A stretch of DNA of 64,000 nucleotides, taken from the NCBI GenBank assembly GCA_964016885.1, contig OZ024742.1, forward strand, positions 356,624,001-356,688,000. Direction: 5' to 3'. This document shows, in pieces, positions 6,795-55,691 of this stretch. The notes beneath the pieces were generated by a model. That model worked only from the letters and a program-made list of their open reading frames with translations. It was not told the origin of the DNA and did not search any database. Numbering within the stretch: position 1 is the stretch's first letter; each line of letters begins with the position of its first letter. Source of the DNA: Eledone cirrhosa. Its lineage: Eukaryota. The position numbers and the translations under genes are program-made.

Positions 6795-7157
6795 ATATAT
6801 AAAGAAAAAGAGATGAAGTCGAAAATGCAACTGGAGTCTTATTTTTTTAAAAAATATATATATTTATTTGGTTCCTTTACCAGTTTCGCAGTTCTTCTGC
6901 TTTTCAAAAGTAGAGTTGACATGGAGGGTCTGTGGTTTTTCTCACATCCGAGATGTGAGAAAAATCACAGACCCTCCATGTCAACTCTACTTTTGAAAAG
7001 CAGAAGAACTGCGAAACTGGTAAAGGAACCAAATAAATATATATATTTTTTAAAAAAATAAGACTCCAGTTGCATTTTCGATTTCATCACTTTTTCTTTA
7101 TACTTTTACTCGTGTAGGTCACCTCGGTTATTTTTCAATTTGTAAAAAAAACCTCAC

Positions 7158-7165
<8 letters not shown>
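6795..7165. mobile_element. Fold-back element, family F (palindrome centred near 6950) with U3-A8 HHR at 6990-7025
   Basis: About 150-bp arms; homologous to 55215-55565. Confidence 0.85.
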
Positions 7166-10544: not shown

Positions 10545-11050
10545 ATGCGCGGCACCGCTCACAAGGAATATGAAGCAGTGACAGGAGCAAAGTTAAACCA
10601 GGAAAAGTCGATGGGCTTGCAACCGGCACCTGGACTGGCAATTCCATGCCACCCAACAGCATTGTGGTGGCGCTGGACGGAAGGACCGGTTAAATTTCTC
10701 GGGGTCTGGTTCGGTCCAGACCTCCAGATGGAGAAAAACTGGAGCGAGGTGACGAACAGGGTTGCCTCTCTCACCCAGAAATGGGCCGAGAGGAAGCTCT
10801 CCCTGAAAGGTCAGACAGAGGTTGCAAATGCGTTCATCGCATCCGTCATCTGCTACCACCTAAATGTTGTGCCTTGCCCCGGCCCAAATCTGACAAAAAT
10901 GGAGCGCCTCCTCTTCCGCTTTTTATGGAAGGGAGTGCTCCCATAGTCAGACGATCCATCTGGTGTCAACACCCGTGCGTGGAGGGCAGGGCATGCGTGG
11001 CTGATAATGCGCAAACATGCGCAGAGGCTGCGAAATCTCTGCTGCATCCT
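10545..11050 (+). pseudogene. Tx1/L1-clade non-LTR retrotransposon, RT C-terminal fragment
   Basis: YEAVTGAKLNQEKS...VKFLGVWFG...WAERKLSLKG...FRFLW motifs. Confidence 0.8.
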
Positions 11051-11203
11051 TGATGGTGCAAAAATGAGGACACACACACACACAGACAATTACACTTTTA
11101 TATGTATGTATAGATATACATACATATATAAACACATATGCACATATATATATACACATATACATATATAAATATACACATAAAAATATATCTATCTATC
11201 TAT

Positions 11204-11425
11204 CTAGGGCGGGTAAAATTCCCGAGATCCATGAACGAGTTCTCTCCCGCGGTCTCTGTCCCTCATTATCGCTGCCATGTCTTGCGTCTCCAACAGACCT
11301 GTGCCTGTCCTTAGGGAATCAACATATGTTAAATTCGGTCTTCCACTTCCACTGTGTCCATGCAGGGTCTCCCACAGCAGCCCTGAGTCCAGTGTCAAGT
11401 CTGGATATCAGTGAGCATGTCCAGT
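11204..11425 (-). mobile_element. RTE-clade LINE 3' fragment (second RTE family; short duplicate at 10271-10320)
   Basis: GRPNLTYVDSLRTGTGL..MRDRDR; same family as 31560-32020. Confidence 0.8.
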
Positions 11426-11518
11426 TCGTGAGTTTTAACAGGCACTCACAAATAAACGTTTCTCATTGGTGGTGCTATTAACAATCTTCTTACCCATGCA
11501 ACGCCGGGATACACTGCT

Positions 11519-11640
<122 letters not shown>

Positions 11641-11646
11641 TGTATT

Positions 11647-11690
<44 letters not shown>

Positions 11691-11696
11691 TGTATC

Positions 11697-11735
<39 letters not shown>

Positions 11736-11743
11736 TTGTATTT

Positions 11744-11774
<31 letters not shown>

Positions 11775-11849
11775 TTTGTATTTATATATATATATATATA
11801 TATGTTTGTATTTATGTATACATATATAAATATATATTTATATATATAT

Positions 11850-12610
11850 CAAGTGCCCACAGGATACTAGTTCCTTCTATTGCTTACAGGATACTAACTC
11901 CTTCTATTGCCCAGATGGTTCTATAGAAATAGTGGACACCTTCCGTTACCTGGGTGACAAAATCAACAGTGGTGGAGGGAGCTCTGAAAGTACAGTAGCC
12001 AGAGTCAGAACGGGATGGAAAAAGTTCAGAGAGCTTATACCGCTGTTGGCTGCTAAAGGTTTCTCTCTAAAAATGAAAGGCATACTGTATGATGCCTGCA
12101 TACGAACAGCAATGCTACATGGCAGTGAGACATGGGCTTTACGTGCAGAGGACCTGTGCAGACTGGAGAGGAACGAAGCAGGCATGCTCCGTTAGATGTG
12201 TAATAGTAATATACATGAACGGCAAAGCATAAATGAACTAAGTAAGACATTAGGAATAAGCGCGATCAGATACTGTTTACTCGAGAGAAGATTACGTTGG
12301 TATGGTCACGTGATGCGTATGAAAAGCGACAGCTGTATAAAAAAAGTGCGGGGCGATCAAAATTGATTGAAGTTGCGGAGTAGGCAGAACCAGAAAAACC
12401 TGGGACGATTTGAGAAATTCCGACCTTACACACTTAAACTTCTCTTACACCAATGTCACTGGACCGAGATCTTTGGCACTACGCAGTAATACAGAAGACC
12501 CGCCTTGCCTAAGTACAAAGCGAAACCTACAGTCAGTAGGTACCTCTTAATCAAATATACACCCCATCCCACTATATCAACCCCCTACCCCCTATTAACA
12601 CCACCCCTTT
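11850..12610 (+). mobile_element. RTE LINE 3' fragment
   Basis: DTFRYLGD..GWKKFREL..MLHGSETW; homologous to 58025-58740. Confidence 0.92.
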
Positions 12611-22474: not shown

Positions 22475-22552
<78 letters not shown>

Positions 22553-22554
<2 letters not shown>

Positions 22555-23028
22555 AGGAATTAAAAACAACAGAAAGATGCAGTAAAAGAGATTTATTCGG
22601 TTCTTACGTACGTTTCAATAGACATCAATTTGCCTAGATCTCACTACATCTATAATATTATATATCTAGTAGAGCATTCGATATCCAATGCACAATCCAT
22701 CACATATCATCAGAGATGAATATCTCTGATGATATGGGATCGATTGTGCATTGGATATCGAATGCTCTACTAAATATATAATATTATAGATGTAGCGAGA
22801 TCTAGGCAAATTGATGTCTATTGAAACGTACGTAAGAACCGAATAAATCTCTTTTACTGCATCTTTCTGTTCTTTTTAATTCCTTATACACGCCCCGGAA
22901 TATAGCTAAACTGGAATATACACCTTTTTTCTGCATTTCTTTGAGCACCACTCTGTTGTAAGCTGACATTCCACTACACGGTACATAACACTGTGTCCTG
23001 GAAAACATTAATGCACTCGTGCATAACC

Positions 23029-38393: not shown

Positions 38394-38396
<3 letters not shown>

Positions 38397-39482
38397 TTGG
38401 GTGCGGATGCATTCATGTATATGTGTGTGTCCGCATGTATCTGTGTGTTTCTAAATATATTGTTAATAACTCCCTCTGGTCGAGCAACCTTTGAAGTGTG
38501 GGGACTGCTGAAAAGCTTCCATTACTCATACTTCTCGCCCCCTTCACCACCTCTTCTACGGCTTCGATATAAATACCCCCTCCGCCTCCGTGGTATTTTC
38601 TTCGGGGTTATAAGAGGCTTAGCTCTGTTTCTCGACCGTTATATCGCGTGACTATCTCCCCCTCCGCCTTTTGGGATTCTTTCTCACGTCGTGTAGAGGC
38701 GTTCTTGAGACTAGTAAAATGAGGTATCCTCTTGATAAGTCGGCAGACCTCGCAAGGACTCTATATCTTTATGATGTATTGTTTTTGTTTATGCCACGAA
38801 ACTACGTAGTCGAGGAATCTAGGAGCAGTTTAGGTATGATACATTTTATTACTAATTATATCTAAATGTTTCTTCTCTCTTCATAATGTATTTTTAACTC
38901 TGATACTGGTTCAGTCTAGTTCAACCGGATTGGTCTGTCCCAGTCATTCATTGAGCAACATCGGTGAAGTTGGCACCCTTAACTCACGGTTGGGTGCGGA
39001 TGCATTCATGTATATGTGTGTGTCCGCATGTATCTGTGTGTTTCTAAATATATTGTTAATAACTCCCTCTGGTCGAGCAACCTTTGAAGTGTGGGGACTG
39101 CTGAAAAGCTTCCATTACTCATACTTCTGGTCCCCTTCACCACCTCTTCTACGACTTCGATATAAATACCCCCTCCGCCTCCGTGGTATTTTCTTCGGGG
39201 TTATAAGAGGCTTAGCTCTGTTTCTCGACCGTTATATCGCGTAACTATCTCCCCCTCCGCCTTTTGGGATTCTTTCTCACGTCGTGTAGACGCGTTCTTG
39301 AGACTAGTAAAATGAGGTATCCTCTTGATAAGTCGGCAGACCTCGCAAGGACTCTATATCTTTATGATGTATTGTTTTTGTTTATGCCACGAAACTACGC
39401 AGTCGAGGAATCTAGGAGCAGTTTAGGTATGATACATTTTATTACTAATTATATCTAAATGTTTCTTCTCTCTTCATAATGT
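38394..39482 (+). mobile_element. Retrozyme-like tandem element, family G (593-bp unit, about 1.8 copies) with U3-A8 HHRs at 38727-38816 and 39320-39409
   Basis: Direct repeat with exact 593-bp period; UCCUC-UUGAUAA..GAAAC uacgua GUC-GAGGA; TA-flanked. Confidence 0.9.
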
Positions 39483-39552
39483 ATATATATATATATAACC
39501 CATGCTAGCGTGGAAGATGGACGTTAAACGATGATGATGATGATGATGACAT

Positions 39553-39748: not shown

Positions 39749-39769
39749 TATATATATATATAAATATAT

Positions 39770-42710
39770 ACGAAAAAATGAAACGAAATTCCATTTCTCA
39801 CTCTTAGTACGGCTGTTACTTAAATATAAGTATGTATACGTACATACATATATGTATACAGACGTTCAGTAGTATCTATATTTATATACATATATGCACA
39901 CATATATATATGTACGTATGGATTCACCGAACATTAATTATAATGCTCGGTGTGTTTGTAAACAAACACCCCGAATTAAGCCGTACAGTGTCTAGCAACC
40001 CTCGTTGCTCATTTGTTCAACACTGACAAAGGAACGCTGTACTAGTTTCAAGCTTATTAGCTATCGTCAGCAACGTATACCTTCCTGCCAGATGGTTGAA
40101 CGTCTGAAAGTATATACTTTCCTTATGCATATTAACGGGTGAGCAGCTTAATTTGCATATCGAGTGAGTTAATAGGCCGGGGTACCAAAAACGATAAACG
40201 AAAAAAATGAAACGAAATTTCATTTCTCACTCTTAGTACGGCTGTTACTTAAATATAAGTATGTATACGTACATACATATATGTATACAGCCGTACAGTA
40301 GTATGTATATATATATATACATACATGCACGCATATATATATATGTACGTATGGATACTTATATACAAATATATATATTTAATTTTAATAAATATTTGCT
40401 CTACGGTTCTTATATATCTGATATATATTTATCCTTATCGAGCCCTTTTTTGATTTTAGTCTTCAAATTTATTATTATTACTATATATATATATATATTC
40501 TCTGTGCTCCAGAAGCCAAAAATTCGGTTTCATATATTGTTTCCAGAATAATATCTAATAACTGTAGTAAAGCATATCATACTATTACAAAATTACCCTT
40601 TCCTTATATTATAAGATATATATAATGAAAGAGAGACATATATTTGACTTGACTTTTTTCTTAACTATGCAATTGCTATCTTATTTGGATCAATAGGAGC
40701 CCATCATCTATTTTAACCTGATATGCAATAGGCAGTTTTATCAAGCTTGGTTCATTTTACTTTCTATAACCTTAGAATAGATATCAATATTCTAGTTTTA
40801 ATTATTACTCTGTAATATGAGATTCATATTCTGCCTTCATGCAGTACACACACGCTCACTCACTCACTATATCTCCCCCTCTTTCTCTCTCATGCATACG
40901 TACATAAATACATACATACGTGAAATTACATATGCATTTATATTCATATATATAAATATATTAGTATGTATACGTACATAGATATATGTGTACAGACATA
41001 CAGTAGTATGTATATATATATATACATACATACACACACATAAATATATGTACGTATGGTTTTACCGAACATTCGGTTTGTTTGTAAACAAACAGCCCGA
41101 ATTACGCCGTACTGTGCTCGGCAACCATCGTCGCCCTTTTGTTCAACACTGACACAGGAACGATGTACTAGTTTCAAGCTTATTAGCTATCGTCAGCATC
41201 GTATACCTTTCTGCCAGATGATTCAACGTTTGAAAGTATATACTTTCCTTATGCATATTAACGGCTGAGCAGCCTAATTTGTATATCGAGTGAGTTAGTC
41301 GGCCGGGCAAACCAAAAACGATAAATGGAAAAGAATGAAACGAAATTTCATTTCTCACTCTTAGTACGGCTGATACCTAATATAAGTATGTATACGTACA
41401 TACATATATGTGTACAGACGCACTGTAGTATGTATATATATATACATACATGCACACACATATATATATACGTATGGGTTTACCGAACATTTATTATAAT
41501 GTTCGGTTTGTTTGTAAACAAACGTTCAACCATCTGACAGAAAGGTATATGATGCTGACGATAGCTAATAAGCTTGAAACTAGTACATCGTTCCTGTGTC
41601 AGTGTTGAACAAAAGGGCAACGATGGTATATTTGCACACCGCCACTTAATGATAATTACGAATTACCAATCATGGAGCAACTGATATGATAACCTGTTTT
41701 GTTTATTGCTCTGATTAAAATGCTCATGTACATATCATTTAGAGGGGAGTTCGTTTCCCTAGCTTGGCTGGTAGACATCTCTTCTATTTGTTGTTAGGTG
41801 TAGGTAAACAATTAAGCAAAAATACCATACCTCGAGATTATATGTACATGAGTTATCATATCACTTGCTCCATGATTGGTAATTCGTAATTATCATTAAA
41901 TGGCGGTGTTCAAATATCCCGTGACCGTATGGTGCAATATCACTGTTTCGCCACAGTGAAACGTGTCTGCTCGCATCAACACACAAAGTTGAAAAAAGAG
42001 TGTATTCAGCTACTGACGTCAGAACGTGACGTCAAAATTAAGGGCAGTTATTCGACCCCCTCCAAAGTCAAAGCTAGGTGGCGTGATCTTCTTTATATTT
42101 AGGTATCAGCCGTACTAAGAGTGAGAAATGAAATTTCGTTTCATTCTTTTCCATTTATCGTTTTTGGTTTGCCCGGCCCACTAACTCACTCGATATGCAA
42201 ATTAGGCTGCTCAGCCGTTAATATGCATAAGGAAAGTATATACTTTCAAATGTTCACTCATCTGACAGAAAGGTATACGATGCTGACGATAGTTAATAAG
42301 CTTGAAACTAGTACATCGTTCCTGTGTCAGTGTTGAACAAAAGGGCGACGATGGTTGCCGAGCACTGTACGGCGTAATTCGGGCTGTTTGTTTACAAACA
42401 AATCGAACATTATAATAAATGTTCGGTAAACCCATACGTACATATATATGTGTGTGCATGTATGTATATATATACATACTACAGTGCGTTTGTACACATA
42501 TATGTATGTACGTATACATACTTATATTTAGGTATCAGCCGTACTAAGAGTGAGAAATGAAATTTCGTTTCATTCTTTACCATTATCGTTTTCGGTGCGC
42601 CCGGCCGACTAACTCACTCGATATGCAAATTAGGCTGCTCACCCGTTAATATGCATAAGGAAAGTATATACTTTCAAACGTTCAATCATCTGACAGAAAG
42701 GTATACGATG
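39770..42710. mobile_element. Array of retrozyme-like family H (~428-bp unit) in both orientations, interrupted by other repeats
   Basis: HHRs at 40035-40075 (-), 41161-41201 (-), 41550-41590 (+) and 42278-42318 (+): CGAUG-CUGACGA-u agcu aaua agcu u-GAAAC UA GUA-CAUCG. Confidence 0.88.
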
Positions 42711-43034
42711 CGTGTGTGTGTGTGTATATGGGTGTTATGTGTGTGTGGGTGGGGGGTATGTTAAGATGGAGAGAATATATATATTTTGTGTGTGTGTATA
42801 TGTGTGTATGAAAGTGATTCTATTAGTAGAAATGGGGGAGGGAATTGTGTGGGGGGGGTATGTGTGTGTGTATGGGGGTTATATGTGAGTGGGAGCATGG
42901 TTAGCATGTTAAGATGAAGAGAATATATATTGTGTGTGCGTGTAGGAAAATGATTCCGTTAGTAGGAATATTTTTGAATGAACATATTTTCCTTACTTAT
43001 TCGTATTTATTCTGTTGTATTGTTAGCGCAAACG

Positions 43035-54795: not shown

Positions 54796-54847
54796 AGATA
54801 TATATATTCATATATATATATATTCATGTTCACATATATATATATTC

Positions 54848-54882
<35 letters not shown>

Positions 54883-54971
54883 TATTCATATATATATATA
54901 TATATATGAATATGAATATATATATATATATATTCATATTCATATATATATATATATATATATTCATATTC

Positions 54972-55015
<44 letters not shown>

Positions 55016-55034
55016 TCATATTCATATATATATA

Positions 55035-55076
<42 letters not shown>

Positions 55077-55092
55077 TATTCATATATATATA

Positions 55093-55166
<74 letters not shown>

Positions 55167-55210
55167 TATTCATATATATATATTCATATTCATATATATA
55201 TATATATATA

Positions 55211-55565
55211 TATATAAAGAAAAAGGGATGAAATCGAAAATGCAACTGAAGTCTTATTTTTTTTTAAATATATATATTTATTTGGTTCCTTTACCGGTTT
55301 CGCAGTTCTTCTGCTTTTCAAAAGGTGAGTTGAGATGGAGGGTCTGTGGTTTTTCTGTGAGAAAAACCACAGACCCTCCATCTCAACTCACCTTTTGAAA
55401 AGCAGAAGAACTGCGAAACCGGTAAAGGAACCAAATAAATATATATATTTTTTAAAAAATAAGACTTCAGTTGCATTTTCGATTTCATCCCTTTTTCTTT
55501 ATACTTCCACTCGTGTAGGACACCTCGGTTATTTTTCATTTTGTAAAAAAAACCTCACTTTCTAA
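55211..55565. mobile_element. Fold-back element, family F, with U3-A8 HHR at 55391-55428 (mirror 55288-55325)
   Basis: CCUU-UUGAAAA-GCAG aagaa CUGC-GAA ACCGGU A-AAGG. Confidence 0.87.
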
Positions 55566-55599
55566 TATATATATCTTTATATATATATATATATTAATG

Positions 55600-55655
<56 letters not shown>

Positions 55656-55691
55656 TATTCATATATATAATATATATATATACATATACAT

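What the first reader, a model, noticed from the sequence alone, without database searches (positions are those of the whole stretch)
55211..55565. 38-nt U3-A8 hammerhead with an ACCGGU stem III (family F)
Seen: CCUU-UUGAAAA-GCAG-aagaa-CUGC-GAA-ACCGGU-A-AAGG at 55391-55428. The 6990-7025 copy has ACUGGU, still self-pairing through G-U. The family is otherwise dissimilar to family G, so the U3-A8 swap appears twice. It combines a rare core with a dimer-only stem III in a very small motif.
Basis: partly seen in the sequence, partly recalled or inferred. Interest (0 to 1): 0.75.

Follow-up and report, generated by a model that had tools for sequence, protein, structure and literature searches.

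The report
Penelope transposon's swapped-core hammerhead ribozyme
This is the cut-off end of a jumping gene present thousands of times in this animal genome; it carries a small, likely self-cutting RNA motif whose swapped base pair is already known from the same kind of element, and the only unusual detail is a cut-site base predicted to partly jam the motif.

Summary
The motif is real (55391-55428) and also sits on the minus strand (55288-55325): the feature is a 144-bp inverted repeat plus tail in (TA)n. It is the 3' end of a young Penelope-like retrotransposon: 13,661 exact 20-mer hits; long copies carry RT plus GIY-YIG upstream in the same sense, unit 4,689 bp. U3-A8 is the family consensus (11,012 of 11,504; C3-G8 with this stem II 0). 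But U3-A8 hammerheads with palindromic helix III in Penelope elements are published (Cervera 2014, same UUGAAAA core), and 38 nt is ordinary there. ACUGGU is no evidence of selection: pairing-breaking ACCAGU is as common (273 vs 253). A transcript across both arms here folds as one hairpin that hides the motif. One unusual detail: U3 is fixed with A17, so a U3-A17 pair analogous to the known C3-G17 trap is predicted (P 0.62). Cleavage is untested. This scan already noted U3-A8 hammerheads in other Penelope and retrozyme families of this genome. Verdict: new member of a known kind.

The parts
55391..55428 (+). Type I hammerhead motif, right arm: stem I 55391-55394/55425-55428, core U3-A9 55395-55401, stem II 55402-55405/55411-55414, GAA 55415-55417, palindrome ACCGGU 55418-55423, A17 55424; predicted cut after 55424
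   Evidence: sequence, descriptor scans, folding
55288..55325 (-). Identical hammerhead motif on the inverted left arm (core starts at 55321)
55360..55503 (+). Right arm: 3' terminal repeat (pLTR) of the Penelope-like element, 5'-truncated; young subfamily (ACCUU before the core)
   Evidence: matches the 3' end of full-length units
55213..55356 (-). Left arm: inverted copy of the same pLTR stretch, ending at the inner fixed end (E2, after ...UUUUCUU, at a TATA)
   Evidence: 51 of 140 arms end at this place
55504..55565 (+). Unpaired tail on one arm only, ending at the outer fixed end (E1, ...CACTTTCTAA)
   Evidence: 60 of 140 arms end at this place; loose ends at both places in an independent run
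54796..55212 (.). (TA)n-rich microsatellite, left flank (target)
   Evidence: sequence
55566..55682 (.). (TA)n microsatellite, right flank (target)
   Evidence: sequence
6798..7164 (+). Second two-armed insertion of the family, older subfamily (UACUU before the core); hammerhead cores at 6993 (+) and 6907 (-), both with ACUGGU

Best explanation
The feature is a 5'-truncated, two-armed insertion of a high-copy Penelope-like retrotransposon in a TA microsatellite, and the 38-nt motif is that element's terminal-repeat hammerhead, which would likely cut slowly and only as a dimer. Shown: the full unit (4,689 bp) carries ORF1, an RT plus GIY-YIG ORF, a 3' UTR and the hammerhead in the same sense; insertions stop at two fixed ends 75 and 141 nt past the predicted cut site, each at a TATA stretch of the element; U3-A8, ACCGGU and A17 are the family consensus. 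Inferred: tandem copies are transcribed, the element's protein nicks (TA)n and starts reverse transcription inside the RNA at those two sites, giving one long and one short arm. Because the copied sequence runs straight across the cut site, the template is uncut (or re-ligated) RNA. Two motifs, from one tandem transcript or two RNAs, would pair through ACCGGU to rebuild helix III. Weak stem I (3-4 bp), no evident tertiary contact and a competing U3-A17 pair predict low intrinsic activity, probably needing protein help as shown for the anole element. The copy in this window is likely inert: a transcript across both arms folds into a 144-bp hairpin.
For: 13,661 exact hits, control 0. Fixed 3' ends, variable 5' truncation, inverted arms in the 30 loci read; ends at E2 51 and E1 60 of 140 arms, 5 read through into a tandem unit; 31 of 39 locus-level arm pairs are E1/E2 (overlapping loci counted twice). 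Pfam GIY-YIG above cut-off (E 2e-6), RVT_1 E 1e-6 but 0.9 bit under cut-off (likewise). A 775-aa frame in 13 of the 15 long loci that the script processed (20 fetched; it stopped at the 16th), hammerhead about 1 kb after the ORF in 14 of 15. Core 11,012 of 11,504; U3, A8, A17 each 96 of 96 aligned arms. Dimer MFE is a double hammerhead with 6-bp intermolecular helix III, -20.3 kcal/mol; monomer helix III is unfavourable. Same architecture in print: PMC4209133 (parts 1-2 of 4 and supplement parts 1-2 of 3 read), PMC8557442 (passages), PMC11167929 (parts 1-2 of 4), PMC3088659 (section 8).
Against: No cleavage data. Selection on the core inside the family is weak: 5 substitutions vs 10.7 expected (Poisson p 0.045), 0 of 36 vs 19 of 389 polymorphic columns (p 0.18), and the both-arm test is underpowered (0 vs 0.48 expected). 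No compensatory change in any stem was found between subfamilies. Stem I probability is only 0.14-0.15 in the native context. In vitro the anole element's hammerhead is not needed for insertion (PMC11167929). Clade placement was by motifs only.
Confidence: 0.72

Rival explanations
1. The motif is a vestigial, inactive hammerhead that the element carries along; the family amplified without any cleavage, and the uniform core reflects young age.
For: Copies are only 1.2% and 3.0% from their subfamily majority, so uniformity is expected without selection. U3-A17 is predicted to close the cut site. Pairing-breaking and pairing-keeping stem III variants are equally common. Hammerhead mutants do not affect insertion in vitro, and Naiad elements spread without canonical hammerheads.
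Against: All 11 core positions, G10.1-C11.1, a perfect palindrome and stem I are present together. An older relative whose pLTR is 72-77% identical keeps UUGAAAA, GAAACCGGU and A17 in one arm, and GAAACCGGUA in 4 of 4 arms (2 of them picked by that motif). The young subfamily lengthened contiguous stem I from 3 to 4 bp. U3-A8 cores are reported active in vitro (citing earlier work).
Confidence: 0.18
2. U3-A17 is a selected safety catch: the motif rests with its cut site paired, and the element's protein or dimer formation flips U3 from A17 to A8 at a set step of the cycle.
For: Predicted U3-A17 pairing P 0.62 in the dimer, 0.00 for family G with C17. Only 69 genome copies have another base at 17 (denominator not counted, about 11,000-12,000). 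The C3-G17 trap is described and a G3-C8 core relieves it (PMC3884650, part 1 of 5 and passages). The anole hammerhead cleaves only with protein.
Against: The gain is only 1.4 kcal/mol for two pairs and P is 0.08 for the older-subfamily ACUGGU copy. A17 is the usual base in most C3-G8 families here and in the shrimp example, so it may simply predate the swap. Fixation is expected in a young family.
Confidence: 0.15
3. The 290-bp palindrome is a foldback DNA transposon (MITE) or a hairpin-RNA/miRNA gene, and the hammerhead look is incidental.
For: Near-perfect inverted repeat in TA context; Rfam miRNA models score on the hairpin.
Against: All of the 150 listed Rfam matches (of 208) are below gathering score. 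Arm length varies freely between copies, ends are unequal, and long copies continue into RT and GIY-YIG frames.
Confidence: 0.02

Closest known systems
U3-A8 minimal hammerheads of Cercyon Penelope-like elements in Schistosoma mansoni (Cervera and de la Pena 2014, PMC4209133)
   Same: Type I, U3-A8 core, one listed example with the identical UUGAAAA, palindromic helix III, location in pLTRs, pairs on opposite strands 100-700 bp apart, proposed dimer action.
   Different: Here helix III is a 6-nt palindrome, stem II is 4 bp, there is no extra base between 9 and 10.1, and position 17 is A. The three U3 rows among the 56 in its Fig. S3 read U17, U17 and G17 (machine-read PDF).
Hammerhead of the shrimp Marsupenaeus japonicus PLE (same paper, Fig. 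S3; called Neptune-like in PMC8557442)
   Same: 38 nt, 4-bp stem II, no extra base, 6-nt palindrome (AGCGCU), A17.
   Different: Canonical C3-G8 core and a 5-bp stem I.
Neptune/Nematis-type EN+ Penelope-like elements (Craig et al. 2021, PMC8557442)
   Same: RT then CX2-5CxxC linker then GIY-YIG, GLKF and DKG motifs, (TA)n targets, partial tandems, inverted 5'-truncated copy, one-sided tail, separate ORF1 in another frame.
   Different: Tail is about 62-66 nt rather than 30-40; clade not placed by a tree.
PAc Poseidon element of the green anole (Frangieh et al. 2024, PMC11167929)
   Same: Two internal start sites downstream of the hammerhead that define the tail; template spans the cut site.
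   Different: There the sites lie inside the ORF and lack homology to the target; here both ends precede ORF1 and fall on TATA stretches that match the (TA)n target. Its core is C3-G8.
C3-G17 trapped hammerheads (Kalweit and Hammann 2013, PMC3884650)
   Same: Position 3 can pair with position 17 and extend helix I over the cut site.
   Different: Engineered G17 variants with a C-G pair; here a natural, weaker U-A pair, predicted only.

Membership tests
Penelope-type small hammerhead (Cervera 2014) | Core N3-UGAN-N8-A ... GAAA ... UH with a Watson-Crick 3-8 pair | tested here: met
   UUGAAAA/GAAA/UA; 11,012 of 11,504, 96 of 96 arms at 3, 8, 17
Penelope-type small hammerhead (Cervera 2014) | Short palindromic helix III that needs a second motif | tested here: met
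   ACCGGU; duplex -10.3 kcal/mol, monomer form unfavourable; dimer P 1.00; prediction only
Penelope-type small hammerhead (Cervera 2014) | G10.1-C11.1 and stems I and II | tested here: met
   GCAG/CUGC, CCUU/AAGG; stem II P 0.87, stem I P 0.15 in context
Penelope-type small hammerhead (Cervera 2014) | Extra base between 9 and 10.1 (consensus trait of the strict minimal subtype; absent in the paper's shrimp and one acorn-worm variant) | tested here: not met
   A9 is followed directly by G10.1; hence filed with the small-palindrome variants, not the strict minimal subtype
Penelope-type small hammerhead (Cervera 2014) | Lies in the pLTR of a PLE | tested here: met
Penelope-type small hammerhead (Cervera 2014) | Self-cleavage, as dimer | not testable with these tools
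   needs an in vitro assay
EN+ Penelope-like element | RT with C-terminal GIY-YIG endonuclease | tested here: met
   Pfam GIY-YIG above cut-off, RVT_1 E 1e-6 just under cut-off; 775-aa frame
EN+ Penelope-like element | 5' truncation, partial tandems, inverted 5' copy, one-sided tail | tested here: met
Neptune/Nematis type | [quoted passage not shown] | tested here: met
   CGRSNCGTC and IYAIKCKGCNEDYIG read in the translation; flanks; definition
Neptune/Nematis type | RT phylogeny inside the Neptune or Nematis clade | not tested
   no reference set on hand
Non-LTR retrozyme | Non-coding tandem unit of a few hundred bases | tested here: not met
   unit is 4,689 bp and coding
MITE / foldback DNA transposon | Equal fixed terminal inverted repeats, no RT-coding parent | tested here: not met
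   unequal ends, variable arm length, RT parent

The most novel reading that the evidence does not exclude
A natural self-jamming hammerhead: the U3-A8 swap on an A17 background lets U3 pair with the cut-site base, so about 12,000 copies carry a ribozyme that rests shut and is opened by dimerisation or by the element's own protein. It would be the natural counterpart of the C3-G17 trap and a direct handle on why Penelope elements keep a ribozyme yet copy uncut RNA.
Probability: 0.15. Interest if true: 0.6.

Novelty: new member of a known kind. Interest (0 to 1): 0.27.

Why it matters
As it stands it adds one more family to a published class. It is a convenient test system: a young family with many intact 775-aa frames, two sharply fixed insertion ends and a hammerhead with a predicted U3-A17 block. 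What Penelope hammerheads do in vivo is open (PMC11167929, PMC8557442); three point variants of a 38-nt RNA would show whether slow cleavage is built in. The 273 vs 253 count is also a caution against reading G-U variants at CpG sites as structural support.

Tried and rejected
Rfam scan: no hammerhead model among the 150 listed of 208 matches; miRNA matches all below gathering score. DNA search of the genome with the 208-bp arm gave nothing because common words are skipped; patterns were used instead. No RNA holder listed; contigs of two runs of unknown kind showed no splice-like joint worth reporting and cannot show RNA ends. A C3-G8 ancestor: one search gave 15 hits (control 4); two, L139 and one arm of L140, are older homologues with CUGANGA. 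Rejected as proof of covariation: they were picked by that pattern, neither forms stem I, the other arm of L140 has UUGAAAA, and a third old copy has the core deleted. 600 kb beside the window held no further old copy, so the old subfamily's core stays unresolved, leaning U3-A8. L143 is a chance junction. Both-arm mutation test underpowered. Sister Neptune families: only one 43%-identical fragment, no hammerhead found for it. A loop II contact with a downstream UUCUU was considered by eye and dropped as likely chance in AT-rich sequence. Lunse et al. (about PLE hammerhead dimers), Przybilski and Hammann 2007 and Nelson and Uhlenbeck 2008 are not held, so they were not read; Lunse is cited only through the review PMC6765202 (passages) and may already contain U3 with A17. 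bioRxiv 10.64898/2026.07.22.740005 (part 1 of 5), PMC7229834 and PMC12602865 (passages) added nothing on the core.

Full report
Observation. The 38-nt motif is at 55391-55428 exactly as written. The copy with core at 6993 has ACUGGU and a 3-bp stem I. Both features are near-perfect inverted repeats: arms 55213-55356 and 55360-55503 (141 of 144 identical) and 6798-6948 and 6952-7102, so each holds the motif on both strands, and each has a tail on one arm only and (TA)n on both sides. A strict descriptor finds 4 hits in the window and 1 in 200 shuffles.

What it belongs to. A 20-mer of the motif occurs 13,661 times in the 3.0-Gb genome, control 0. The 30 loci read show a fixed 3' end, free 5' truncation and often an inverted copy. 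L031 continues upstream into an RT and GIY-YIG frame in the same sense. A protein search scored 150 of 22,524 candidates, all at 92% identity or more. Of 20 long loci fetched the script processed 15: 13 have a 775-aa frame and 14 have the hammerhead about 1 kb after the ORF. In the tandem L111 the unit is 4,689 bp: hammerhead, two fixed ends, ORF1 (400 aa from its ATG, no Pfam match), an overlapping 775-aa RT/GIY-YIG frame, and a 3' UTR. [quoted passage not shown] No tree was built.

Insertion anatomy. Of 140 distinct arms, 51 end at the inner site and 60 at the outer site, 5 run on into a tandem unit; 31 of 39 locus-level pairs combine one of each (overlapping loci counted twice). An independent run has loose TA ends at the same two places. 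In the tandem both sites fall on TATA stretches of the element itself, so priming by short pairing to a nicked (TA)n target is a reasonable inference. Both ends lie downstream of the predicted cut (75 and 141 nt), so the template spans the cut site. This matches the anole element, where reverse transcription starts at two internal sites that define the tail and uncut RNA is the main substrate (PMC11167929, parts 1-2 of 4).

Core and stem III across copies. With anchors outside the core, 11,012 of 11,504 copies read UUGANAA, and CUGANGA with this stem II occurs 0 times. In 96 arms from loci chosen by an upstream anchor or by the protein, U3, A8 and A17 are invariant. Stem III variants: ACUGGU 273 and ACCAGU 253 of 12,407 (p 0.41). 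The first keeps pairing (-5.2 kcal/mol), the second loses it (-0.2), so their equality points to CpG decay, not selection. In the 6798 insertion both arms carry ACUGGU, so that variant was probably on the template. Two subfamilies exist, 1.2% (62 arms) and 3.0% (33 arms) from their majority; the younger has a 4-bp contiguous stem I. Tests for selection on the core are weak: 5 vs 10.7 expected substitutions (p 0.045), 0 of 36 vs 19 of 389 polymorphic columns (p 0.18), both-arm test 0 vs 0.48. An older relative was found; its two CUGANGA arms were picked by pattern, lack stem I, and the unpicked partner arm reads UUGAAAA, so within-lineage covariation is not shown.

Folding. The monomer cannot close helix III; the dimer minimum is a double hammerhead with 6 intermolecular pairs. 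In the native context stem II is likely (0.87) and stem I weak (0.15). The whole window insertion folds to one hairpin of -245 kcal/mol with both stems at probability 0, so this copy is likely inert. In monomer and dimer minima U3 pairs with A17 and extends helix I over the cut site: P 0.62, worth 1.4 kcal/mol for two pairs; 0.00 in family G with C17; 0.08 for the ACUGGU copy, whose dimer is weak. This parallels the C3-G17 trap behind the NUH rule (PMC3884650, part 1 of 5 and passages). Only 69 copies have another base at 17.

Comparison. Cervera and de la Pena 2014 (PMC4209133; parts 1-2 of 4, supplement parts 1-2 of 3) report about 1,300 U3-A8 minimal hammerheads in Schistosoma Penelope elements, opposite-strand pairs, palindromic helix III and low, dimer-dependent activity; their alignment has an identical UUGAAAA core, a U3-G8 intermediate, and a 38-nt shrimp motif with a 6-nt palindrome and A17. 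Perreault 2011 reports natural U3-A8 and cites in vitro activity. So core, dimer stem and size are all known. U3 with A17 was not found in the 56 listed examples or in three paper searches, but Lunse et al. and the mutational papers are not held and may cover it. Earlier notes of this scan describe U3-A8 in other families of this genome; none matched this sequence or place.

Verdict. Real, correctly read, and ordinary in kind: a new member of the Penelope hammerheads. Element identity is near certain; slow dimer cleavage is likely but untested (0.72). The U3-A17 block is the one testable twist. Interest 0.27.

Noticed in passing
L111 4353-7819 (G000:C2, about 151609850-151613320): ORF1 overlaps the RT/EN frame in the -1 frame with a U UUU UUA slippery heptamer and a predicted 5-bp hairpin 7 nt downstream; the heptamer is intact in 16 of 19 copies spanning it. 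A frameshifted ORF1 is noted for PLEs in the Fig. 1 legend of PMC8557442. Pseudoknot not tested.
   Followed up: partly
window 38395-39484: Family G: 593-bp tandem with U3-A8 hammerheads (38732, 39325), 10-nt palindrome, C17; retrozyme-like by earlier notes.
   Followed up: partly
window 40070(-), 41196(-), 41555(+), 42283(+): C3-G8 hammerheads (CUGACGA, ACUAGU, A17) in a nested inverted repeat family at 39766-42711.
   Followed up: no
window 6686(+), 26185(-), 60985(-), 59866(+), 44364(+), 52883(+): Further C3-G8 type I hammerhead motifs from other repeat families, three with an AUAUAUAU palindrome.
   Followed up: no
window 22551-22888: 338-bp palindrome with GAA-ACGUACGU-A on both arms and CUGAUGA near the centre: by eye a hammerhead with a long stem II; its 3' end resembles family F.
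   Followed up: no
L032 (G000:C1:10044000-10053000): A 483-bp tandem repeat with a C3-G8 hammerhead, stem I CCUU/AAGG, ACCGAUCGGU palindrome and an inverted arm; retrozyme-like, next to a family F insertion.
   Followed up: partly
L139/L146, L140/L147, L048: Older relative of family F (pLTR 72-77%, EN region 82% identical) with the same two ends; core state unresolved.
   Followed up: partly
L112 (G000:C4:28494800-28504700): Two adjacent insertions with intact 775-aa frames in tandem; several other loci also hold intact frames, so the family may still be active.
   Followed up: no
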